A stretch of 35,430 nt of DNA, taken from UHGV virus genome UHGV-0309502. One strand, 5' to 3'. The translations under genes and the position numbers were made by a program. Numbering within the stretch: position 1 is the stretch's first letter; the number at the start of each line of letters is the position of its first letter. The stretch is from a virus. Shown here piece by piece: positions 1,254 to 34,330 of this stretch. The notes below the pieces were generated by a model that had not been told where the DNA came from, searched no databases, and was given only the letters and a program-made list of their open reading frames with translations.

Positions 1254-1280
1254 ACAGCCCCATCACGGGGCTGTTTTTTC
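1254..1280. terminator. bidirectional terminator hairpin between convergent genes
   Basis: ACAGCCCC-atca-GGGGCTGT followed by TTTTTT; A-run on the other strand; overlaps the 3' end of Q. Confidence 0.5.
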
Positions 1281-2309
1281 ATCAAGAAGAGCATAAGAGT
1301 TAAAACGGATCACCTCTTCGCCAAGCCAGTCATTGATGTGCTTCATAGCCTCCATGACGGGCATCAGCTCGTTAATTGCGTAAACCCGCGCTGCCTTCTC
1401 CACATCGCCAAACGCACTTTTTTCGCCCGGCATCGCCCCCATCAGTTGCGGCGGAACGCGGTGCGCAGCCAGCACATCATCACGGGATGCCGCCTTAACA
1501 TTCATGAATTCATCTTTTGCGGTGATCTGCTGGAACGGCAAAATTTGCACCCCCTCTTTGCCCCCGTTGGGCGCATGAATGAGCACGTTTTTAAACGCAC
1601 CACCACCACGTGCCCCCTGTAGCGTTTCTTTCAGGGAGTCCATGCTTTCGCGGTTTACCTGCGCTGCACCGATGTAGATGATGCACCCGGCGTGGGATCC
1701 GTTGTCGTAGTACAGTTTTCTGAACATGTCCGCCGAATGAGAAAGGCTGGCCGAGAGTAATGCGCCAAGATATTCCGGCATGCCGTAGATTTCCTGGTTA
1801 ATATCCGGATTCATCAGGTGGCACACTTTGCCAGGACGAAACTGAAACGCGTCCTTGCCATCCTGCACATACCACCATGATTCAAGATCGCTTCCGCGTC
1901 GCATGTATTTCGCCAGGGCGTGCCGTAATTTAAGCGGTTCGCCGAGCATATTGCTTCGAAGCTCAAGGAATGCGTTACCGAACACAAACCAGTCCAGCGC
2001 CAGCGCCGAGAAATCCTGCCGGGAAAGCAGCGGGTGCGGGATGTAGCAACCGAGTAATACATTGCGCTTAAAGTAAAGCGCAGACTGATGCCAGGACGTT
2101 TGCCGGGCAGCTCTTGCCAGACCGTACCAGTCCACCGGGGTTTCATACCACCGCCCGTTATCAGCACAGTACATATTGTCCAGCAGGTCATGCCCGGTCA
2201 GGCGATAAGGACCATCAAATGTGAATGCACTGAGCGATGATTCTTTCCTGAGCGCATCAGCGAGATCAATGCGTGAACTCATGCGCACTTTTTTATTTTT
2301 TCTGCTCAT
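1263..2309 (-). CDS. Q: portal (capsid vertex) protein, P2 gpQ family
   Basis: 348-aa ORF; position and orientation paired with the terminase gene as in the P2 PQ operon; sequence resembles recalled gpQ. Confidence 0.85.
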   Translation of the reverse strand: MSRKNKKVRMSSRIDLADALRKESSLSAFTFDGPYRLTGHDLLDNMYCADNGRWYETPVDWYGLARAARQTSWHQSALYFKRNVLLGCYIPHPLLSRQDFSALALDWFVFGNAFLELRSNMLGEPLKLRHALAKYMRRGSDLESWWYVQDGKDAFQFRPGKVCHLMNPDINQEIYGMPEYLGALLSASLSHSADMFRKLYYDNGSHAGCIIYIGAAQVNRESMDSLKETLQGARGGGAFKNVLIHAPNGGKEGVQILPFQQITAKDEFMNVKAASRDDVLAAHRVPPQLMGAMPGEKSAFGDVEKAARVYAINELMPVMEAMKHINDWLGEEVIRFNSYALLDEKTAP

Positions 2310-4060
2310 CAGAACTCCATAACTGTGAAACGCTCGTTTTCTCCTTCGCCGCCAATTGGTTCGTTAATGACAGCAAGCATGGTTGCCCACGCAAGGTCGC
2401 CGTGGCTGATCCCCCTCGCGCGGTCCGTTTCGTAAGTGATAAAGCCGCCCGGTGTTTTCACCTTACGCACGGCGTTAAAGGCTGCGACCAGCTCGCGTTC
2501 GGCGCGATCGTATTCCCACCGCCCGGCACGCATTATTTGCAGCATTTTCAGTACCAGCGACCGTTTTGATGACAGCGTGAAGGTGTACGGAATAGCAGCA
2601 GGGAAAAACCGTTTCACTATCTGATAAACAGCCTCCCCGTTCCCGCCCGTCACATCAATGCCGATGTGTTCCACGTTGTAGCGACACGTGAACTCTTCAA
2701 TGACTCTGGCCTGTTCTTCAAACTCCAGCCCCTGAACGCGTCGCGTCTCCACCGTTCGAAAACGGCCACCAGGAACAGACGGAGGAACCACCACGGACAC
2801 AGCGCCGCTGTCGCCGTTGCCACTGCTGCCGTTTGCGTCATACCCAATCCATACCGGACGATTCCCCATCGGGCGGGGAGCAAAAGGTTTCCAGTCTTTC
2901 CAGTCGTCGTATCCGTCAACACCACAGCCAATCAGGATATTCAGGTTAAATGCCGATTCCCCTTCGCGGACAAACTCACACATATAGAGATTGAGGAACT
3001 CGTCTTCGGTGTTTTCATCACGAATTTCATCAATATCGGTGTGTTTCCAGCCGTGATTAACCACATCTTCCAGCGTGACAATTTGCCGCCACGTCCGGTC
3101 AGGGCAGATAAGCCCGTTATGCAGCGTTTTCCAGTCCACAGAAAAACGCTGGCGTTTATGCGTGGCCTTTTTCTCGTTCCAGCGGTCGCCGTTCCAGTAG
3201 GCGTATGCCTCGTGCGTTTCGGTGGATGGCGTGGAGAAGTAGGTGCGCCGCAGTCCGCTGAGGGTTGCCATAGCGCCAGCCACCTTGCGCAGTTCAGCAA
3301 AGCGACTGACCCAGAAAAATTCATCAAAATAAAAATTGCCCGTATAGGACTGCGCCGACGCAGCAGAAGTGCCGAGAAAATGCAGCTCTGCGCCGTTGGA
3401 GAGGATGATTTTATCGCCCCCTTTCAGCTCCACATCAACTTCAGCCGCGGCCTTCTGAATAATGCTTTTAAACTGGAACGCCTGACGACGCGACGCAGAC
3501 AAAAAAATCTGGTTACGCTGGTAAGGTTGCGCCACATCGTCACGCAGCGCCATCAGCAGTGCTTCCTGTGCAAAATACCAGGTCGCGCCAATCTGTCGGG
3601 ATTTCAGGATCATCCTGTTACGTATCCCGGCTTCCCTGCAAAGGGTCAGGGAGTCAAACCAGCCCCGCTGATGCCACTCCAGCCTGCTGATGATTTTTTC
3701 CCGCAGTGCGACAATCTGTTCCGGCGTGAAATGATTTTTGAGTTTTTTCGCCCGGCCTTTCTTTCCTGTGGCCGTCGCATCCGGCTGGCCATCATGCATT
3801 TTTTTAAGCTGCCGGGTCAGCAGGTCTATTTCCTTAAAGTCACCGCCTGTTTTATTCTGTTTTTCAGTAAGCTGGATGAGGCGCGCATCGATGGACTGCG
3901 TGACACGCTGCACGGGTGGCGTTTCATCCCACTGGTCGCGTTTTTTCCACGCATAAATCGTGTTCGGGTTTATTCCCATCAGACGTGATATTTCTGCGGG
4001 CGGATAACCCTGCCAGTAAAGTTGCCGCGCACGCTGGCGCACAAAAGCGTCCTGAATCAT
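2309..4060 (-). CDS. P: terminase large (ATPase) subunit, P2 gpP family
   Basis: 583-aa ORF; 1-nt overlap with Q; divergent from the O-N-M capsid operon as in P2. Confidence 0.85.
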   Translation of the reverse strand: MIQDAFVRQRARQLYWQGYPPAEISRLMGINPNTIYAWKKRDQWDETPPVQRVTQSIDARLIQLTEKQNKTGGDFKEIDLLTRQLKKMHDGQPDATATGKKGRAKKLKNHFTPEQIVALREKIISRLEWHQRGWFDSLTLCREAGIRNRMILKSRQIGATWYFAQEALLMALRDDVAQPYQRNQIFLSASRRQAFQFKSIIQKAAAEVDVELKGGDKIILSNGAELHFLGTSAASAQSYTGNFYFDEFFWVSRFAELRKVAGAMATLSGLRRTYFSTPSTETHEAYAYWNGDRWNEKKATHKRQRFSVDWKTLHNGLICPDRTWRQIVTLEDVVNHGWKHTDIDEIRDENTEDEFLNLYMCEFVREGESAFNLNILIGCGVDGYDDWKDWKPFAPRPMGNRPVWIGYDANGSSGNGDSGAVSVVVPPSVPGGRFRTVETRRVQGLEFEEQARVIEEFTCRYNVEHIGIDVTGGNGEAVYQIVKRFFPAAIPYTFTLSSKRSLVLKMLQIMRAGRWEYDRAERELVAAFNAVRKVKTPGGFITYETDRARGISHGDLAWATMLAVINEPIGGEGENERFTVMEF

Positions 4061-6172: not shown

Positions 6173-6973
6173 ATGATTACTCCTGCACAACAACACTGGC
6201 AGAACGTGATGGCACAGCGCGCAGGCCGGGCGAATGAAGGTGTGGACCACGCCGCGTGTACCGCGCATGAAGAGGTGCTGTATCGTCTGCGTCTGGCACA
6301 GGCCAGGCTAAAGGCCATACAGGCCAGAAGCGCGAAAGCCGCCATCAAAAAAGAGTTGTTGCCGGACTTTTCCGGCTGGATTGAGGGAACGCTGGAGGCT
6401 GACGGCGGGCAACAGGACGAAGTAATTGCCACGCTGATGGTGTGGGCGATTGACTGCGGCGATCTTCCGCTGGCGCTGCGTATTGGTGCATATGTGGTCC
6501 GTCACAACCTCATCATGCCGGATAACTTTGGCCGTACTGCTGCCACGGTACTGACCGAAGAAATCTGCAACCCGGTACTGACGCAGGCCGGGACGGATGC
6601 CGACGCGGATTTATCCGCCTTTATCGAACCACTGGACACACTTTGGGAAATTGTCGCCAACCAGGACATTCCGGACGAAGTGCGCGCCAAATTATGCAAG
6701 GCGTGTGCCTTTGCCCGTCGTGGCCTGACCGATGCAGACAACATGGCCTCATCACTGAAGCTGCTGCGCGAAGCGATGCACCTGAACCCGAACGCAGGTG
6801 TGAAACGCGAGATTGCAACCCTTTCCCGCGCCCTGAAAAAAGCCGATTCCGCAGCCGAACCAGAAGACGCCAGCGCACAGCAGGCGCAGGACGAAAGCAG
6901 CAAAAGTAAAAAGACAACGCGGAAGCCTGCAACACGAAAAACCACCGCGACGCAGAAGGCAAAGCGCGGTTAA
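6173..6973 (+). CDS. M: terminase small/endonuclease subunit, P2 gpM family
   Basis: 266-aa ORF; strong resemblance to recalled gpM (ITPAQQHW..., DEVRAKL, AGVKREI); basic Lys/Arg-rich C-terminus. Confidence 0.8.
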   Translation: MITPAQQHWQNVMAQRAGRANEGVDHAACTAHEEVLYRLRLAQARLKAIQARSAKAAIKKELLPDFSGWIEGTLEADGGQQDEVIATLMVWAIDCGDLPLALRIGAYVVRHNLIMPDNFGRTAATVLTEEICNPVLTQAGTDADADLSAFIEPLDTLWEIVANQDIPDEVRAKLCKACAFARRGLTDADNMASSLKLLREAMHLNPNAGVKREIATLSRALKKADSAAEPEDASAQQAQDESSKSKKTTRKPATRKTTATQKAKRG

Positions 6974-7074
6974 CGACTGACCCCGTCAGCGGGCGGCGTG
7001 CGCGGTGTTCCGGTTTGACTCCGTGACCGTTTACACCGCGCACCCACCGCCCGATTTTTTCAGGAGTGAACCCC

Positions 7075-7569
7075 ATGAGTATGGTTGCCAGAACTAACCC
7101 CGGCCCCGCAGAGGACGACATCACCGATACCGATGATGGCGACACTCGCATTTCAGCGGGTGCATTCTGGCCGGATATTGTGCTGCGTGAGCTGCGTCTG
7201 GCGGTACGACTGCCGGGCCGCGTGACCACCTCCCGCCTGCTGCATACCGCCACCGGGGCCATAGCACACGTTACCCGCGAGCTGGAAGCATGGCAGCAGG
7301 AACAACAGGCGGCTGGCTATCAGACGCTGGCCGATGTTCCGGCCCCTGTAATTAACGGAGAAAGCGTCAATCTCTGGCACTGGCGCAATGCTGTTTATAC
7401 CGCCACACGCGCCCTGATTCTGGAGCGTTACCGCGATGCGGACACAACGGACAAGGGCGACCGCCGGGCGGACGCACTGGATATACAGACATCGGATTTG
7501 TGGCGCGATGTGAGCTGGGCCATCTCTGACATTCTGGGACGACCGCGAATGTTTGCGGAGCTGTGCTGA
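7075..7569 (+). CDS. L: head completion/stabilisation protein, P2 gpL family
   Basis: ORF frame 7066..7569; ATG at 7075 preceded by AGGAG; synteny after M. Confidence 0.75.
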   Translation: MSMVARTNPGPAEDDITDTDDGDTRISAGAFWPDIVLRELRLAVRLPGRVTTSRLLHTATGAIAHVTRELEAWQQEQQAAGYQTLADVPAPVINGESVNLWHWRNAVYTATRALILERYRDADTTDKGDRRADALDIQTSDLWRDVSWAISDILGRPRMFAELC

Positions 7570-7769
7570 TGAAAGTGAAGGCACTGGAAGGCGACACCGT
7601 GGATTCGCTCTGTTTCCGGTACTACGGCACGACACAGGGCGTCACCGAAAAGGTGCTGGATGCCAACCCCGGACTCTGTCAGCAGGTATTTCTGGACGCC
7701 GGGCAGGAAGTGGAGATGCCGGAGCCGGAGAAGAAGAAACGAGAAATGATTCAGTTGTGGGGGGAGTAG
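7569..7769 (+). CDS. X: tail protein X (LysM-like), P2 gpX family
   Basis: ATG at 7569 overlaps the L stop (TGATG); 66-aa product MKVKALEGDTVDSLCFRYYG... matches the recalled gpX pattern. Confidence 0.75.
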   Translation: MKVKALEGDTVDSLCFRYYGTTQGVTEKVLDANPGLCQQVFLDAGQEVEMPEPEKKKREMIQLWGE

Positions 7770-7771
7770 CA

Positions 7772-8095
7772 GTGAGCACCATTCAAACAGGGATCACAGA
7801 GCAGGTTATTGCGTGGCTCTTTGACCACCTGCCAACGGTGTATGCAGTAGGCGCGGCTGTCAGCATTTCCGCGCTGATGAGTCTTTATGACGGACGAACA
7901 CTGGTTCAGACCGTAACGGGATCGCTGGCGTGCGGCGTTCTTGCCATGGCCGTGGCCGGGTCGCTGCGCTTCTTCGGGATCCCTGAGGATGCAGTGACGT
8001 TTTTTGGTGCCTCAATCGGTTTTATGGGCGCAGAGAAAGCACGCGACAAGGTTATTGCAATATTTGATCGCAGGGTGAAGGAGAGGAACGAATGA
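7772..8095 (+). CDS. holin (about 107 aa, three predicted transmembrane segments)
   Basis: GTG start after a GGGGGAG Shine-Dalgarno; hydrophobic segments with charged C-terminus; immediately upstream of and overlapping the endolysin (ATGA). Confidence 0.55.
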   Translation: MSTIQTGITEQVIAWLFDHLPTVYAVGAAVSISALMSLYDGRTLVQTVTGSLACGVLAMAVAGSLRFFGIPEDAVTFFGASIGFMGAEKARDKVIAIFDRRVKERNE

Positions 8096-8484
8096 GCAAC
8101 ACATTTAAATTCAGCAGCCGAAGCGAAAAGAATTTGCAGGGTGTAAATCCTGATCTGGTGAAAGTGACCCGACGGGCGCTGGAAATCTCGGAAGTGGATT
8201 TTGGTATCACCGAAGGATTGCGCAGTCGTTATCGTCAGAAGCAGCTCGTGACCACAGGCAAGAGCCAGACCATGAACAGTCGCCATCTCACAGGGCATGC
8301 CGTGGATGTTGTGGCTTATGTTGGCAGCCAGGTGTCATGGGAATGGCCGCTGTACGAAAAAATCGCAGCAGCATTCAGACAGGCCAGCCAGGAACTGAAT
8401 ATTCCGGTGGAATGGGGCGGCGACTGGAAGACCCTGAAAGACGGACCGCATTTTCAGTTACCACACGGAGCCTATCCGGCATGA
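8092..8484 (+). CDS. endolysin, peptidase M15 (L-alanyl-D-glutamate / VanY-like) family
   Basis: 130 aa; SRHLTGHAVDV zinc-binding-type motif and overall size typical of M15 phage endolysins; sits in the lysis cassette. Confidence 0.65.
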   Translation: MSNTFKFSSRSEKNLQGVNPDLVKVTRRALEISEVDFGITEGLRSRYRQKQLVTTGKSQTMNSRHLTGHAVDVVAYVGSQVSWEWPLYEKIAAAFRQASQELNIPVEWGGDWKTLKDGPHFQLPHGAYPA

Positions 8485-8876
8485 AGCTCTGGCCCACGCT
8501 TGGCGTCGCTTTCCTTCTGATTACATCCATGCGTCTGTCGTGGTCGCTGGGCCGGGAGAACGCCAGAAACGAAGCGCAGGCCAGCACCCTGAAAAGTACC
8601 GTCGACACACTGAATATCATCAGCGCCGGGGTACAGGATATGCAGCAGGTGCTGGCTCAGCTCCGCGCGGAAAATCAGCAACGCAATCAGGACGGAGAGG
8701 TAAGACGTGAACAGCTACGCAACGATATTGCAAAAGATGAATGCGCCCACGCTTTGCCTGACGCTCGTTTTACTGACAGGTTGCGCAGGCACGCAGAACG
8801 CGCCAGGGCCAGCGCCGTCAGTCCGGCTTATACCGCAGACGCTGACCATGCCGGTAACGCCTCCCCCCTTCCCTGA
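8481..8876 (+). CDS. i-spanin (Rz / LysB-like)
   Basis: ATG overlaps the endolysin stop; N-terminal signal-anchor LWPTLGVAFLLITSM followed by a charged coiled region. Confidence 0.55.
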   Translation: MKLWPTLGVAFLLITSMRLSWSLGRENARNEAQASTLKSTVDTLNIISAGVQDMQQVLAQLRAENQQRNQDGEVRREQLRNDIAKDECAHALPDARFTDRLRRHAERARASAVSPAYTADADHAGNASPLP

Positions 8877-9018
8877 CCCACCCACATGGGGAAACCTCGG
8901 AATATGGGGCGACCGCCTTCTGGATGCACTGGAAACCTGTAACGCGGATAAACGGGCCATTGCTGAACTGGATAAGAGAATAGCCGAACTGACACACCAG
9001 ACGGGAGTAACACAATGA
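8707..9018 (+). CDS. o-spanin (Rz1 / LysC-like) lipoprotein, overlapping the i-spanin in another frame
   Basis: Lipobox LLTGC followed by a proline-rich segment; start may instead be the Met of MNAPTL (about 8737); partly embedded in the i-spanin gene. Confidence 0.5.
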   Translation: MNSYATILQKMNAPTLCLTLVLLTGCAGTQNAPGPAPSVRLIPQTLTMPVTPPPFPDPPTWGNLGIWGDRLLDALETCNADKRAIAELDKRIAELTHQTGVTQ

Positions 9019-26480: not shown

Positions 26481-27482
26481 TTACCCTCTATTGTCAAAAG
26501 GGTTCAATTCAACAGCAGCCTCTAAATGACCTGGAGCAAAATGCGCATAACGCATAGTCATTTTTATATCGCTATGCCCCAGTATTTTTTGCAACACAAG
26601 AATATTTCCGCCCCGCATCATAAAATGACTGGCAAACGTGTGACGTAGCACATGAGTTAATTGCCCATCAGGAAGCTCGATCTTCGCTCTCTTAATTGCA
26701 GCGTCAAAAGCCTCATAACATGGTGAAAATAGCGCTCCTCGTTTTTTAGGAAGCATAGCCTGCAATTGAGGTGAAATCGGTACAGTGCGGTTCTTCTTTC
26801 CTTTAGTTTTAACAAATGTGATTCGACCGGGCAGTACTTGAGATTGCTTTAATCCTTCTGCTTCACTCCACCGAGCACCCGTCGCAAGCCCAATACGGAC
26901 AACAACCCCCAAATCTTTATTCCGTGACTCATCACACGCAATCAGAAGGCGTTCAATCTCATCTACATACAGAAACGCCAGTTCCTTTTCTTCCTCACGA
27001 AACTTGCGAATACCAGTCAGGGGGTTTTCACCAGACCACTCCCCAAGGCGCTTCAGTTCGGCAAAAACAGCATGTAGATATGACTGCTCGCGATTAACGG
27101 TTGCTTCACTAAGTTTTTTCTTCCCCTTGGGATTCCATTCTCCTGATAGCCTTCTTTCCCGATAAGTAGCAAACATATTTTTGTCAAACTGAGAAGCAAA
27201 TGGATCTCCCAGCCTGGAACAAATCGCCTCAAGTTTGACTTTGCGCTCTGCACCAGAGGACAAGGTTTTACCGTACATCTCAAACCAACGAGCAATCAAC
27301 TCAGAAAGACGAGGACCAGAACCATCTTGAAACTCGTCTCCAACTCTACTATTCATTAAACGGCGCTCATAAGAGAGCGCCTCACTTTTTGTCGCAAACT
27401 GTTTACGAATGCGTTTTCCCGATGCCCCGTAGGGATAACATTCGCAAAGCCATTTACCTGATGGAATCTTACGAACCGACAT
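26481..27482 (-). CDS. int: tyrosine integrase, P2 Int family
   Basis: 333 aa; GKRIRKQF, GARWSEA, RTVPIS, HVLRHTFASHFMMRGG, MRYAHFAP match the recalled P2 Int pattern; adjacent to the att core. Confidence 0.9.
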   Translation of the reverse strand: MSVRKIPSGKWLCECYPYGASGKRIRKQFATKSEALSYERRLMNSRVGDEFQDGSGPRLSELIARWFEMYGKTLSSGAERKVKLEAICSRLGDPFASQFDKNMFATYRERRLSGEWNPKGKKKLSEATVNREQSYLHAVFAELKRLGEWSGENPLTGIRKFREEEKELAFLYVDEIERLLIACDESRNKDLGVVVRIGLATGARWSEAEGLKQSQVLPGRITFVKTKGKKNRTVPISPQLQAMLPKKRGALFSPCYEAFDAAIKRAKIELPDGQLTHVLRHTFASHFMMRGGNILVLQKILGHSDIKMTMRYAHFAPGHLEAAVELNPFDNRG

Positions 27483-28530: not shown

Positions 28531-28935
28531 TCACCTACCCTTAGTTTCGTTATAGTCACGACCAGCGATACGGTTATTACCACCAGAAATATTTAACTCA
28601 CGTCCTGATGGCTGAGTTTCCTTTTCACTGATCGCACCTTTTAAAGCCCCAATCACCGCATTTTTCACATCTAACGAAGCTGCTCGAAAGCGAGTAATCA
28701 ACTCCTGCTCATCATCGTTATAAGTTTCAGGTGAGTGAATTCCCAACACAACATACTGAACATCAAGGCCAAAACGAGACAGCGCTGCCAAATACGCAGC
28801 ATCAGGAAAGCTATCTCCTTTCTCATATCTAAGCTGAGTTAGCTTTTTGACTCCACCAATGTCGCTCATGGCAACTTGACTAAGTCCCAATCTTTCCCTT
28901 TCCTCACGCAACCGCTGACCAATATCATTTTTCAT
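28531..28935 (-). CDS. XRE-family HTH immunity repressor (C/cI-like) with C-terminal extension
   Basis: 134 aa; N-terminal HTH (QRLREERERLGLSQVAMSDIGGV...); first gene of the leftward operon ending in int; divergent from the early operon. Confidence 0.7.
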   Translation of the reverse strand: MKNDIGQRLREERERLGLSQVAMSDIGGVKKLTQLRYEKGDSFPDAAYLAALSRFGLDVQYVVLGIHSPETYNDDEQELITRFRAASLDVKNAVIGALKGAISEKETQPSGRELNISGGNNRIAGRDYNETKGR

Positions 28936-31507: not shown

Positions 31508-34330
31508 ATGACGGCAGAGTACATCAGGGACTGGCAACAACCGCGCCACGCAGTGGGGCGTGAAGGAACGGGGATCCCCGCTCCTGAATCCGCGCTTTCC
31601 TCCTGGCTGGATGCCTACCGGGCAGAGAACGAGCGCCGCCAGGAAATGGCTGATGCGGCGTTCTCCGCCACGCCGCTGGGCAACCTGATTAATAAAAGCC
31701 TAGACGCACAGGAAAAACAGGACAAAACAATCACACTGGCAGGAGACGCCAGAAAACAGGCACGCGGCGCGGTAGATGAGGCCATGGCCTCACTGCGCCT
31801 GCTGCCGTCCTATCTGCGCGATCCGCTTATTCGCCACCTCTCCTTCCTGCGCAAAAAACAGGAAGCCGATCGTCAGCAAGGAAAAAACGCCAGGCAGGCA
31901 GAACGCTATGCGCGTGGGACCCTGCGCAAAATATTCGAACGTCTGGAGCGCACCGATCACCGCTGGCTGACATCGGGTTATCGCTCCCTTGCCGGACGTG
32001 AACGCCTGGACGATTTGATTTACCTGCCGCAACTCAACAAACACCAGATACAGACGCTGGCCACCATGACGGCGGCGATGTTCAGCAGCACCTTCGAAAA
32101 ACTCTGCGATGGTTTTGGCGCGACTGATGGCGAGCTGACCATGGATGTAACGCTGAAGGCGTATCAGATGCTGGCCCGCATGGCGTTACACTTACACGCC
32201 ATGCCTCCGCATTATGACGCACTGACAACAGACAAAGACCGGAGGCACGAACCGGACACAGAACTGCTGCCGGGCGCAATCCTTCGCCTGACCTGTGCGG
32301 AATGGTGGAAACGCAAACTGTGGCTGTTACGTTGCGAGTGGAGAGAAGAACAACTCCGCGCCGCCTGTCTAGTTTCCAGAAAAACATCGCCCTATCTGAG
32401 CCAGGACGCGTTAAGCGAGTTTCGCGCACAGCGCGAGAAAACACGCGATTTCCTGAAAAGTTTCATGCTGGAAAATGAAGACGGGTTCACGATTGATCTC
32501 GAGACGGTGTATTACGCGGGAGTAAGTAACCCGGTTCACCGTAAGGCAGAAATGATGGCCACCATGAAGGGGCTGGAACTTCTGGCCGAAGCCCGTGGCG
32601 ACAAAGCGGTGTTTCTGACTGTCACCTGCCCGTCAAAATACCACGCCACAACGGAGAACGGTCATCCGAATCCCAAATGGAACGGGGCCACAATGCGCGA
32701 CTCCAGCGATTACCTGGTTAACACGTTTTTTGCGGCGGTCCGCAAAAAACTGAACCGCGACGACCTGCGCTGGTATGGCATCCGCACGGTGGAGCCTCAT
32801 CATGACGGCACCGTGCACTGGCATATGATGGTCTTTGCACATCCGGAAGAAATCGACACCATTGTGTCCCATACCCGCGATATTGCCATTCAGGAAGACC
32901 GCCACGAGCTGGGCAATGATATTACTCCGCGCTTTAAGGTGGAGTATGTCGACGGCTCAAAAGGCACGCCAACCAGCTACATCGCCACCTACATCGGAAA
33001 GAACCTGGACAGCCGCGCCGTGGATGGCATCGACCCGAAAACGGACAAGCCACGCGTGGACCACGAAACCGGAAAATCAATGGCCGAGAGCGTGGAACGC
33101 GCCATCGGCTGGGCGCGTCTTCACCGCGTCCGCCAGTTCCAGTTCTTTGGTATCCCCTCCCGTCAGGTATGGCGTGAACTCCGCCGCCTTGCCAGTCAGA
33201 TGGCCCGCAACCCGGAAGGTCCACAACGTCTGGAAAATGACGCAATGGATGCGGTACTCGCTGCCGCTGATGCCGGGTGTTTTGCCACCTACATTGAGAA
33301 ACAGGGTGGCGTACTTGTTCCACGCAAAGACTACCTGATTCGCACCGCCTACGACCTCGCAGAAGAGCTGAACGATTACGGCGAGCAAAGCGTACAGATT
33401 TACGGGATCTGGTCGCCACAAATCGGGGAATCTTCCCGCGTGTGCACGCACCCGGATAACTGGAAGCTGGTAAGACGTAAACCGGAAGCGGAAGACAGCG
33501 CCCGCGAAAATGGTTTTGACCTTCAGGGCGGCCCTGCCGCCCCTTGGACTCGTGGCAATAACTGTCCCCGTGTACAGGAAACGGACAACAACGGGACAGA
33601 ACAGCCGGAAGAACGGCCAGCACCGTGGCCGCAGCTCCCTGACGGCGTTGAAGTGAACGAATGGATGCGCTCACTGAAACGGCACGAACGCCGGGCGCTG
33701 ATGCGTTCGCTTCGTGACAAACAGGCAAAAAACAGCAGTGATGAAATGCAGAGCTGGACACAGAGCCGCAAACAGCAGCGGCCTTTGCCTGATAACCACG
33801 AATTACTCGCTAAAGAATGGCGGGAGTCTGCTGAATCTCTCGGCCTGCATATCGGTGAACAGCAGATGCAGCACCTGTTACGGGGCGGCAGTCTGTACGT
33901 TGACGGCAGCATCATTGCACCGCAGGGATTTGAAATTGTACGCAAACCGGATACCCGACCGGACAGCCGGATCACGCAGCTCTGGCAGCGCCTGAGCCGT
34001 AACCACGGCGTAAGCAGCACGGAGATCCGCCATAACCCGGTCGCCAGCTATCTGGAACAGCTGGGGGCATCAGACCCCGAAGCCGCCGCACGCCTGGCAT
34101 CCACACTTCAGCAAGACCAGAACACCATGAAAACACCCGTTACCGTGCTTTCTGACATGCTGCGCGCCATCCGCGACGCAGAGCACGCACAGAGAATCAG
34201 TGAAACCACTGAACGCGCCCGCCGCAAAGCAGACCTGCTGCGAGGTGGCCTGACCAGTGGAAACAAAAAACAGACAGAAACGGGATTCACAAATCCCGTA
34301 AATGAGCAAAAAACGCGCCGCGATATATGA
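31508..34330 (+). CDS. A: replication initiation endonuclease, P2 gpA (rolling-circle HUH) family
   Basis: 940 aa; metal-binding HWH in TVHWHMMVFAH and tyrosine pair in SYIATYIGKN typical of gpA-type Rep proteins; position after the early operon. Confidence 0.8.
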   Translation: MTAEYIRDWQQPRHAVGREGTGIPAPESALSSWLDAYRAENERRQEMADAAFSATPLGNLINKSLDAQEKQDKTITLAGDARKQARGAVDEAMASLRLLPSYLRDPLIRHLSFLRKKQEADRQQGKNARQAERYARGTLRKIFERLERTDHRWLTSGYRSLAGRERLDDLIYLPQLNKHQIQTLATMTAAMFSSTFEKLCDGFGATDGELTMDVTLKAYQMLARMALHLHAMPPHYDALTTDKDRRHEPDTELLPGAILRLTCAEWWKRKLWLLRCEWREEQLRAACLVSRKTSPYLSQDALSEFRAQREKTRDFLKSFMLENEDGFTIDLETVYYAGVSNPVHRKAEMMATMKGLELLAEARGDKAVFLTVTCPSKYHATTENGHPNPKWNGATMRDSSDYLVNTFFAAVRKKLNRDDLRWYGIRTVEPHHDGTVHWHMMVFAHPEEIDTIVSHTRDIAIQEDRHELGNDITPRFKVEYVDGSKGTPTSYIATYIGKNLDSRAVDGIDPKTDKPRVDHETGKSMAESVERAIGWARLHRVRQFQFFGIPSRQVWRELRRLASQMARNPEGPQRLENDAMDAVLAAADAGCFATYIEKQGGVLVPRKDYLIRTAYDLAEELNDYGEQSVQIYGIWSPQIGESSRVCTHPDNWKLVRRKPEAEDSARENGFDLQGGPAAPWTRGNNCPRVQETDNNGTEQPEERPAPWPQLPDGVEVNEWMRSLKRHERRALMRSLRDKQAKNSSDEMQSWTQSRKQQRPLPDNHELLAKEWRESAESLGLHIGEQQMQHLLRGGSLYVDGSIIAPQGFEIVRKPDTRPDSRITQLWQRLSRNHGVSSTEIRHNPVASYLEQLGASDPEAAARLASTLQQDQNTMKTPVTVLSDMLRAIRDAEHAQRISETTERARRKADLLRGGLTSGNKKQTETGFTNPVNEQKTRRDI

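What the first reader, a model, noticed from the sequence alone, without database searches (positions are those of the whole stretch)
7772..9018. Lysis cassette differs from P2: M15 peptidase endolysin, overlapped spanins, no recognisable lysA
The endolysin is a zinc peptidase-type enzyme rather than a P2 K-type lysozyme. Holin, endolysin, i-spanin and o-spanin are chained by ATGA overlaps. This indicates module exchange in the lysis region.
Basis: partly seen in the sequence, partly recalled or inferred. Interest (0 to 1): 0.2.

Follow-up and report, generated by a model that had tools for sequence, protein, structure and literature searches.

The report
P88-type phage lysis cassette, ordinary
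This is the standard host-lysis gene set of a common P2-related E. coli prophage (the phage P88 group): it uses a different holin and a zinc peptidase instead of P2's lysozyme, it is already annotated in databases, and it is a tidy but unsurprising case of phages swapping lysis genes.

Summary
The observation largely holds. Window 7772-9018 encodes four lysis genes. They are a lambda-S-family holin (PF05106), a 130-aa M15/LAS zinc peptidase endolysin, an i-spanin and an overlapping lipoprotein o-spanin (PF23793 LysC). The endolysin is 61% identical to the solved L-Ala-D-Glu endopeptidase ChiX, with all zinc and catalytic residues conserved. There is no lysA homologue and no room for one.

One detail is wrong. 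ATGA overlaps join holin/endolysin, endolysin/i-spanin and o-spanin/next gene. The two spanin genes instead overlap out of frame by 140-170 nt, as in P2 lysB/lysC.

Module exchange is supported, but better by close relatives than by P2:
- P2 is only 39-48% identical in the flanking genes L and X.
- Citrobacter phage Shae_phiSM is 93-96% identical on both sides but carries a GH108 endolysin in place of window 8059-8501.
- P88 lacks window 8963-10960, a 2-kb insertion that carries a NanS-p-like esterase and rewrites the o-spanin C-terminus.
- Salmonella phage SEN5 keeps the holin family but has a lysozyme and embedded spanins.

The cassette occurs in 1008 of 5426 complete E. coli genomes and, nearly identical, in isolated phages (P88, vB_EcoM-705R2). 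It is already known and of low interest.

The parts
7772..8095 (+). Class I-type holin, 107 aa, lambda S family. GTG start preceded by the SD sequence GGGGGAG. Three hydrophobic segments (about residues 22-39, 46-66, 73-87) and a charged C-terminal tail. No dual-start (Met-Lys-Met) motif.
   Evidence: PF05106 at E 4.4e-19, 69.2 bits against a cutoff of 23.8. phrog_126 at 1.4e-34. TIGR01594 holin_lambda at 51.2 bits, just below its 55.05 cutoff. Hydropathy. Same start as in RefSeq and P88.
8092..8484 (+). Soluble endolysin, 130 aa, M15/LAS zinc peptidase, predicted L-alanyl-D-glutamate endopeptidase. SxHxxGxAxD motif at S63-D72. Zinc ligands H65, D72, H120; catalytic D117; R44. No signal peptide or SAR (signal-anchor-release) domain.
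   Evidence: PF13539 at E 6.6e-12 and phrog_465 at 2.4e-76. PDB 5opz ChiX at E 6.9e-48, 61% identity over 126 aa. 8q2g L-Ala-D-Glu endopeptidase at 2.8e-45 and phage T5 endolysin 2mxz at 6.2e-22. ChiX residues His68, Asp75, His123, Asp120 and Arg47 are from PMC5778951 and map at an offset of +3. Maximum 17-residue hydropathy is 0.81.
8481..8876 (+). i-spanin (Rz/LysB-like), 131 aa. N-terminal membrane anchor, central helical region, Pro-rich C-terminus. Lacks 4 aa (AGWG) in the anchor relative to P88.
   Evidence: phrog_214 at E 1.5e-39. DUF2570 at 18.9 bits, below its cutoff. 24% global identity to P2 LysB with shared N-terminal anchor and C-terminal PLP. Hydropathy.
8707..9018 (+). o-spanin (Rz1/LysC-like) outer-membrane lipoprotein, lipobox LLTG-C. 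The start is either GTG 8707 (SD GGAGAGG 6 nt upstream, 103 aa) or ATG 8737 (93 aa). It overlaps the i-spanin gene out of frame by 170 or 140 nt. The last ~18 aa differ from P88 because of the downstream insertion.
   Evidence: PF23793 LysC at E 1.2e-13. 31% identity to P2 LysC at E 4e-7. Alignment with the conserved lipobox Cys. Sequence.
8059..8501 (+). Exchangeable endolysin slot: the last ~11 holin codons, the whole endolysin gene and the first 7 i-spanin codons. Citrobacter phage Shae_phiSM has a GH108 endolysin here.
   Evidence: blastn of the window against L005 gives 96.0% identity over 6900-8058 and 93.4% over 8502-8962, with nothing in between. Annotation.
8963..10960 (+). 2.0-kb segment absent from P88 and Shae_phiSM, where 93 bp stand in its place. 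It supplies a new o-spanin C-terminus and the 626-aa DUF1737-SASA-DUF6645 (NanS-p-like) esterase gene at 9015-10895, whose ATG overlaps the o-spanin stop (ATGA).
   Evidence: blastn breakpoints. Pfam PF08410, PF03629 and PF20350. 86% nucleotide identity to Stx phages from 9221 onward. 80% aa identity to YYZ-2008 gp42, with a divergent N-terminal domain.

Best explanation
Window 7772-9018 is the late-operon lysis cassette of a P2-like temperate phage of the P88 group (Peduoviridae, genus Xuanwuvirus). It sits in the P2 position between tail gene X and tail-completion gene R.

Inferred mechanism:
1. A three-TMD holin of the lambda S family accumulates in the inner membrane and triggers to form large holes.
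2. Those holes release a cytoplasmic, signal-less M15/LAS zinc peptidase, which cuts the L-Ala-D-Glu bond of peptidoglycan stem peptides.
3. A two-component spanin then disrupts the outer membrane. It consists of an inner-membrane-anchored i-spanin and an outer-membrane lipoprotein o-spanin, encoded by overlapping genes as in P2 lysB/lysC.

The genes are translationally coupled through ATGA overlaps. There is no LysA-type membrane protein and no lambda-type dual-start antiholin, so timing is presumably set by the holin alone.

Relative to P2, the holin and endolysin are non-homologous replacements, lysA is missing, and the spanins are distant homologues. Within the genus, the endolysin gene and the region 3' of the o-spanin are recombination hot spots.

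What is shown: gene content, family assignments, conserved catalytic residues, breakpoints and prevalence. What is inferred from homology: hole formation, bond specificity, spanin function and timing.
For: - Gene order L-X-holin-endolysin-spanins-(esterase)-R-S-V-W-J-I matches P2 order.
[quoted passage not shown] All five key residues are conserved.
- The endolysin has no hydrophobic N-terminus. The holin has three hydrophobic peaks and a charged C-terminus.
- The o-spanin has a lipobox and a LysC Pfam match.
- The same cassette, at 92-100% aa identity, occurs in isolated phages. [quoted passage not shown]
- It is present in 1008 of 5426 complete E. coli genomes.
- Exchange is supported by P2, SEN5 and Shae_phiSM.
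Against: - Nothing here was tested functionally.
- TIGR01594 (lambda holin equivalog) scores just under its cutoff.
- DUF2570 scores under its gathering cutoff for the i-spanin.
- The i-spanin anchor is 4 aa shorter than in P88, which could weaken membrane anchoring.
- The o-spanin start codon is ambiguous, and its C-terminus has been replaced relative to P88.
- GC content shows no compositional break around the cassette, so the exchanges relative to P2 are old or came from donors of similar composition.
Confidence: 0.9

Rival explanations
1. The cassette mainly acts as a holin/endopeptidase protein-release system (type 10 secretion-like, as in Serratia chiWXYZ) for the downstream signal-less NanS-p-like esterase, and is not simply a phage lysis module.
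For: It has the same four-part composition as chiWXYZ: a lambda-family holin with a single start, a ChiX-like M15 endopeptidase at 61% identity, and two spanins. The esterase ATG overlaps the o-spanin stop. The esterase has no signal peptide; it begins with a DUF1737 domain.
Against: The cassette sits in the canonical lysis position of a P2-type late operon that has all the structural genes. The same cassette occurs without the esterase in the plaque-forming phage P88 and in about 630 E. coli genomes. Release of the esterase through ordinary phage lysis needs no special secretion role.
Confidence: 0.05
2. The differences from P2 reflect deep vertical divergence of one ancestral cassette, not gene replacement.
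For: The backbone is itself only 39-48% identical to P2 in L and X. The o-spanin (31%) and i-spanin (24% global) fit slow vertical divergence with a retained overlapped layout. There is no GC anomaly.
Against: The holins fall in different Pfam families and show no pairwise similarity. The endolysins have unrelated catalytic types, zinc peptidase against the P2 K endolysin (phrog_90). lysA is missing entirely. Within-genus swaps with sharp breakpoints are observed directly.
Confidence: 0.03
3. The M15 protein is a D-Ala-D-Ala carboxypeptidase/VanY-like enzyme, as the Pfam family title says, and not an L-Ala-D-Glu endopeptidase.
For: PF13539 is titled 'D-alanyl-D-alanine carboxypeptidase'.
Against: The closest solved and assayed relatives are all L-Ala-D-Glu peptidases: ChiX at E 7e-48, 8q2g at 3e-45, phage T5 endolysin at 6e-22 and Ply500 at 2e-7 (PMC5778951). 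A carboxypeptidase would not lyse cells.
Confidence: 0.03

Closest known systems
Lysis cassettes of Escherichia phage P88 (KP063541/NC_026014, Xuanwuvirus P88) and Escherichia phages vB_EcoM-705R2 / vB_EcoM-569R5
   Same: Same four genes in the same order and position. Holin, endolysin and i-spanin are 99-100% identical at the aa level to 705R2 and 92-95% to P88. Nucleotide identity to P88 is 95% over 7000-8962. 705R2 and 569R5 also carry the segment after 8962 at 99.7% identity.
   Different: P88 lacks window 8963-10960 (the esterase) and has a different o-spanin C-terminus that overlaps gene R. P88's i-spanin has 4 extra residues (AGWG) in its anchor.
Phage P2 lysis region Y-K-lysA-lysB-lysC
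   Same: Same location between X and R. The order is holin first, then endolysin, then spanins. The i- and o-spanin genes overlap in the same way (145 nt in P2, 140-170 nt here). The o-spanin is in the same Pfam family, PF23793.
   Different: The holin family differs (PF05106 against PF04550). The endolysin is an M15 peptidase and not K (phrog_90). There is no lysA. The i-spanin is in a different PHROG (214 against 89), with only weak cross-matches.
Serratia marcescens chiWXYZ (holin-like ChiW, L-Ala-D-Glu endopeptidase ChiX, spanin-like ChiY/ChiZ)
   Same: It combines a lambda-family, single-start, three-TMD holin with a signal-less M15/LAS endopeptidase and two spanins. The endolysin is 61% identical to ChiX, with identical zinc and catalytic residues.
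   Different: chiWXYZ lies in a chromosomal chitin-utilisation locus and serves chitinase secretion (PMC4259817). Here the cassette is in a phage late operon. ChiW, ChiY and ChiZ were not compared by sequence.
Citrobacter phage Shae_phiSM (Xuanwuvirus) and Salmonella phage SEN5 (Senquatrovirus)
   Same: Shae_phiSM has 96% and 93% nucleotide identity on the two sides of the endolysin, with the same holin and spanins. SEN5 has the same holin family at 57% aa identity, in line with its L (48%) and X (52%) proteins.
   Different: Shae_phiSM has a 181-aa GH108 endolysin. SEN5 has a 146-aa lysozyme-type endolysin and an embedded Rz/Rz1-type spanin pair.
Phage T5 endolysin (PDB 2mxz) and related L-alanyl-D-glutamate peptidases
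   Same: Single-domain M15 peptidase of about 130-140 aa, matched at E 6.2e-22. About 36% identity by tblastn to endolysins of ~105-115-kb Salmonella/Escherichia phage genomes, one of them annotated as 'lys: L-alanyl-D-glutamate peptidase'.
   Different: Much more distant than ChiX or 8q2g. The phage background is different.

Membership tests
Phage_holin_3_1 / lambda S holin family (PF05106) | Full-length profile match above the Pfam gathering score | tested here: met
   69.2 bits against a cutoff of 23.8; residues 7-101 align to model positions 5-99 of 99.
Phage_holin_3_1 / lambda S holin family (PF05106) | NCBIfam equivalog TIGR01594 (holin_lambda) trusted cutoff | tested here: not met
   51.2 bits against a cutoff of 55.05. 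It is a family member but not an equivalog of lambda S.
Phage_holin_3_1 / lambda S holin family (PF05106) | Three transmembrane segments and a charged C-terminal tail (class I topology) | tested here: met
   Hydropathy peaks centred near residues 30, 57 and 80. The C-terminus is EKARDKVIAIFDRRVKERNE. This is hydropathy only; no topology predictor was run.
Phage_holin_3_1 / lambda S holin family (PF05106) | Dual-start motif giving holin plus antiholin (typical of lambda S, not required for family membership) | tested here: not met
   There is a single SD-backed GTG at 7772 and the next Met is residue 36. An in-frame GTG at 7757 has no SD and would add no charged residue.
LAS / M15 L-alanyl-D-glutamate peptidase endolysins (ChiX, T5 Lys, Ply500) | Profile or sequence match to the family | tested here: met
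   PF13539 at 46.3 bits against a cutoff of 25. ChiX at E 6.9e-48 and T5 endolysin at 6.2e-22.
LAS / M15 L-alanyl-D-glutamate peptidase endolysins (ChiX, T5 Lys, Ply500) | His-Asp-His zinc ligands, catalytic Asp and substrate Arg | tested here: met
   H65, D72, H120, D117 and R44 align with ChiX His68, Asp75, His123, Asp120 and Arg47.
LAS / M15 L-alanyl-D-glutamate peptidase endolysins (ChiX, T5 Lys, Ply500) | Cleavage of the L-Ala-D-Glu bond in peptidoglycan | not testable with these tools
   Needs a muropeptide assay. Inferred from 61% identity to ChiX.
Two-component spanin, overlapped type (P2 LysB/LysC) | o-spanin with signal peptide, lipobox Cys and no Asp at +2; LysC profile match | tested here: met
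   The lipobox is LLTG-C16 followed by Ala. PF23793 at 51.2 bits against a cutoff of 27. The lipobox Cys aligns with that of P2 LysC.
Two-component spanin, overlapped type (P2 LysB/LysC) | i-spanin with an N-terminal membrane anchor and a periplasmic helical domain | tested here: met
   The only hydrophobic stretch is in residues 1-23. phrog_214 Rz-like spanin at E 1.5e-39. The anchor is 4 aa shorter than in P88. DUF2570 is below its cutoff.
Two-component spanin, overlapped type (P2 LysB/LysC) | o-spanin gene starts inside the i-spanin gene in another frame and extends beyond it | tested here: met
   8707/8737-9018 against 8481-8876. P2 has 8202-8492 against 7922-8347.
P2-type lysis cassette (Y, K, lysA, lysB, lysC) | Y-type holin (PF04550), K endolysin (phrog_90) and LysA (phrog_162) | tested here: not met
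   BLASTP finds no similarity. The families differ. There is no LysA match.
Holin/endopeptidase secretion system (type 10, chiWXYZ-like) | Cassette sits next to secreted cargo outside a functional phage and acts without phage production | tested here: not met
   It is embedded in a complete P2-order phage genome. The same cassette is found in plaque-forming P88. Non-lytic secretion cannot be tested here.

The most novel reading that the evidence does not exclude
The most novel reading not excluded concerns the 2-kb insertion fused to the o-spanin 3' end, not the cassette itself. The NanS-p-like esterase may be a deliberately lysis-coupled product: translated by ATGA coupling from the spanin message and released by this ChiWX-like cassette. 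Alternatively, its strongly diverged DUF1737 N-terminal domain may have been retargeted to decorate a P2-type capsid. That domain was reported in a 2026 preprint to be the capsid-binding part of the phi24B esterase. Either case would extend NanS-p biology from Stx lambdoid phages to P2-like phages, with the esterase insertion present in about 7% of complete E. coli genomes.
Probability: 0.15. Interest if true: 0.4.

Novelty: already known. Interest (0 to 1): 0.1.

Why it matters
It matters little beyond correct annotation. It documents that Peduoviridae lysis cassettes are mosaic at the single-gene level, with unusually clean natural breakpoints. Those breakpoints could guide engineering of endolysin swaps. 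The analysis also flags a probable RefSeq start-site error for lysC, whose model omits the lipobox. Finally, it points to a widespread P2-like carrier of a NanS-p-type esterase, which is the more interesting neighbour.

Tried and rejected
- tblastn of the P2 Y, K, LysA, LysB and LysC proteins against the whole window gave only chance-level hits. It even missed the LysC relationship that pairwise BLASTP and Pfam detect, so the absence of lysA rests also on the lack of any spare ORF and on the hydropathy scan.
- An apparent 226-nt, 69% 'repeat' between the holin gene and gene L was an artefact. The FASTA file also held the SEN5 locus, so the hit was the SEN5 holin.
- The promoter/terminator scan of 6900-12200 found no more sites than shuffled controls, so there is no evidence for separate transcription of the cassette or the esterase.
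- The GC profile shows no compositional island.
- NCBIfam gave no hits for the endolysin, the spanins or the esterase.
- I did not use the large protein databases, structure prediction or fold search, because a 61%-identical solved structure already settles the endolysin fold.

Full report
**What is there.**
ORF listing and the raw sequence show a tight run of + strand genes downstream of the P2-type genes L (7066-7569, PF05926) and X (7569-7769, PF05489):
- a 107-aa ORF at 7772-8095 (GTG start, SD sequence GGGGGAG just upstream);
- a 130-aa ORF at 8092-8484;
- a 131-aa ORF at 8481-8876;
- an out-of-frame ORF ending at 9018 that starts at GTG 8707 or ATG 8737.

Profile searches assign these as follows:
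- Holin: lambda S family. PF05106 at E 4.4e-19, phrog_126 at 1.4e-34, TIGR01594 at 51 bits (just under its cutoff).
- Endolysin: Peptidase_M15_4. PF13539 at E 6.6e-12, phrog_465 'endolysin' at 2.4e-76.
- i-spanin: Rz-like, phrog_214 at 1.5e-39.
- o-spanin: LysC/Rz1-like, PF23793 at 1.2e-13.

ATGA stop/start overlaps exist at 8092-8095 (holin/endolysin), 8481-8484 (endolysin/i-spanin) and 9015-9018 (o-spanin/next gene). The i-spanin and o-spanin are not linked by ATGA. The o-spanin begins 140 nt (ATG 8737) or 170 nt (GTG 8707) inside the i-spanin gene in another frame and runs 142 nt past it. This is the 'overlapped' layout of P2 lysB/lysC.

Four-base overlaps are also found elsewhere in the operon, for example V/W. 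They are ordinary translational coupling.

lysA is genuinely absent. There is no intergenic space. P2 LysA finds only a 22-aa chance match (E 0.02) far away in the window. No other + strand ORF in the late operon has multiple hydrophobic segments.

**The individual proteins.**
The endolysin matches the solved structure of Serratia ChiX (5opz) at E 6.9e-48, with 61% identity over 126 residues. It also matches 8q2g, an L-alanyl-D-glutamate endopeptidase (2.8e-45), and the T5 endolysin 2mxz (6.2e-22).

[quoted passage not shown] Its ligands are His68, Asp75 and His123, with an essential Asp120 and Arg47 (PMC5778951). The window protein has H65, D72, H120, D117 and R44 at the aligned positions, and the LAS motif SxHxxGxAxD at residues 63-72. 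It has no hydrophobic N-terminus, so it should depend on holin holes for export.

The holin has three hydrophobic peaks and a highly charged C-terminus. It lacks a lambda-type Met-Lys-Met dual start. The only upstream in-frame GTG (7757) has no SD and adds no charge.

The o-spanin has the lipobox LLTG-C followed by Ala, and it aligns with P2 LysC through the lipobox (31% identity, E 4e-7).

The i-spanin has a single N-terminal anchor. It aligns globally with LysB at 24% identity, sharing the anchor and a C-terminal PLP.

**Comparison with P2.**
P2 Y is PF04550/phrog_175, K is phrog_90, LysA is phrog_162, LysB is phrog_89 and LysC is PF23793/phrog_456. Pairwise BLASTP finds nothing for holin, endolysin or i-spanin.

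The holin and endolysin are therefore non-homologous replacements. lysA is missing. The spanins are at best distant homologues with the same architecture.

The flanking proteins are themselves only 39% (L) and 48% (X) identical to P2. This is another genus, not a P2 that recently swapped a module.

**What the element is.**
Megablast places the region in E. coli prophages and in isolated phages of the P88 group. P88 is classified as Peduoviridae, Xuanwuvirus. It carries the same holin, 'endolysin, Peptidase M15' and i-spanin at 95% nucleotide identity. vB_EcoM-705R2 is 99-100% identical at the protein level.

P88 is a working phage. [quoted passage not shown]

The cassette covers at least 80% of the query in 1008 of 5426 complete E. 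coli genomes. RefSeq annotates it as 'phage holin family protein / M15 family metallopeptidase / DUF2570 / LysC'.

The window as a whole has the P2 gene order, including integrase, a C-like repressor and gpA.

**Direct evidence for module exchange.**
Three comparisons with nearer relatives are more telling than P2.

1. Citrobacter phage Shae_phiSM (Xuanwuvirus) is 96.0% identical to the window from 6900 to 8058 and 93.4% identical from 8502 to 8962. In between it carries a 181-aa GH108 endolysin in place of the M15 gene. The breakpoints fall in the last ~11 holin codons and the first 7 i-spanin codons.

2. P88 and Shae_phiSM both lack window 8963-10960, where 93 bp stand in P88. The inserted segment rewrites the last ~18 residues of the o-spanin. 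It adds a 626-aa DUF1737-SASA-DUF6645 esterase whose ATG overlaps the o-spanin stop.

3. Salmonella phage SEN5 shares the holin family at 57% identity, in line with its L (48%), X (52%) and R (35%) proteins. However, it has a lysozyme-type endolysin and an embedded Rz/Rz1 pair.

The nearest endolysin relatives outside the genus are in unrelated phages (Yersinia PY100 at 64%, Escherichia phage kaaroe, a 164-kb genome, at about 62%). The nearest holin relatives are in SEN5, Citrobacter phiNP and Pseudomonas phages. The two genes therefore have separate histories.

GC content shows no island.

**Mechanism and rivals.**
The best-supported reading (confidence 0.9) is a canonical three-step lysis of a Gram-negative host: holin holes, a soluble L-Ala-D-Glu peptidase, then a two-component spanin. 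No LysA-type or dual-start regulator is present.

The composition is the same as Serratia chiWXYZ: a lambda-family single-start holin, ChiX and two spanins (PMC4259817). A type-10-secretion-like role for releasing the downstream esterase is therefore conceivable. It is unlikely as the primary function, because the cassette sits in an intact late operon and works in esterase-free P88.

Pure vertical divergence from P2 is excluded for the holin and endolysin by their different families. A DD-carboxypeptidase activity, suggested by the Pfam title, is unlikely given the assayed close relatives.

**Verdict.**
The feature is ordinary and already annotated and represented in isolated phages, so it is of low interest.

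Noticed in passing
window 9015-10895 (+), within the inserted segment 8963-10960: A 626-aa DUF1737 + SASA + DUF6645 carbohydrate esterase (NanS-p-like) sits between the o-spanin and tail gene R, ATGA-coupled to the o-spanin stop. It is 80% identical overall to the esterase of Stx1 phage YYZ-2008. Nucleotide similarity to Stx phages (86%) starts only at 9221, and the N-terminal ~68 aa (DUF1737) are only about 30% identical. A 2026 bioRxiv preprint (10.64898/2026.04.10.717836) reports DUF1737 as the capsid-binding domain of the phi24B esterase, so this divergent copy might be fitted to a P2-type capsid. The lysis-plus-esterase arrangement is in 373 of 5426 complete E. coli genomes.
   Followed up: partly
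window 8059-8501, compared with L005 1868-2521: There is a clean endolysin-only allelic swap within the genus. Citrobacter phage Shae_phiSM has a GH108 endolysin in an otherwise 93-96% identical context, with breakpoints inside the holin 3' end and the i-spanin 5' end.
   Followed up: yes
window 8830-9018; L001 10331-10519: The RefSeq lysC model (WP_418510551.1, 62 aa) starts at an ATA codon (window 8830). It omits the signal peptide and lipobox Cys, which align with P2 LysC. This is probably a start-site misannotation. P88's GenBank record does not annotate the o-spanin at all.
   Followed up: partly
window 8520-8525 (i-spanin residues 14-15): The i-spanin lacks four residues (AGWG) in its N-terminal membrane anchor relative to P88. 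Only about 15 hydrophobic residues remain before Arg18. Both alleles occur in E. coli genomes that have the esterase. Any functional consequence is unknown.
   Followed up: no
window 8694-8739: The o-spanin start is ambiguous. GTG 8707 has a strong SD (GGAGAGG, 6 nt upstream) and would give a Lys-containing n-region. ATG 8737 has a weak SD and no positive charge before the hydrophobic core.
   Followed up: no
window 15512-17800: This looks like an invertible tail-fibre segment. It has 229-nt inverted repeats (15512-15740 and 16906-17134, 90%) inside the tail-fibre coding sequence. It also has a reversed alternative fibre C-terminus (16614-17183, Collar domain) and a reversed tail-fibre assembly gene (16000-16614). 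A + strand ORF (17069-17797) has an internal sequence MQIGYIRVSTNDQ... that resembles Hin/Gin-type serine invertases (from my own knowledge of the family; no profile search was run on it). In the current orientation the fibre gene H (14437-15993) has no assembly gene downstream on its own strand.
   Followed up: partly
whole window: The 35,430-bp window has the complete P2 gene order. It runs from portal/terminase (1263-4060, - strand) through the head, lysis and tail genes to integrase (26481-27482), a C-like HTH repressor (28531-28935) and replication protein gpA (31508-34330). It appears to be an entire phage or prophage genome and not a fragment.
   Followed up: partly
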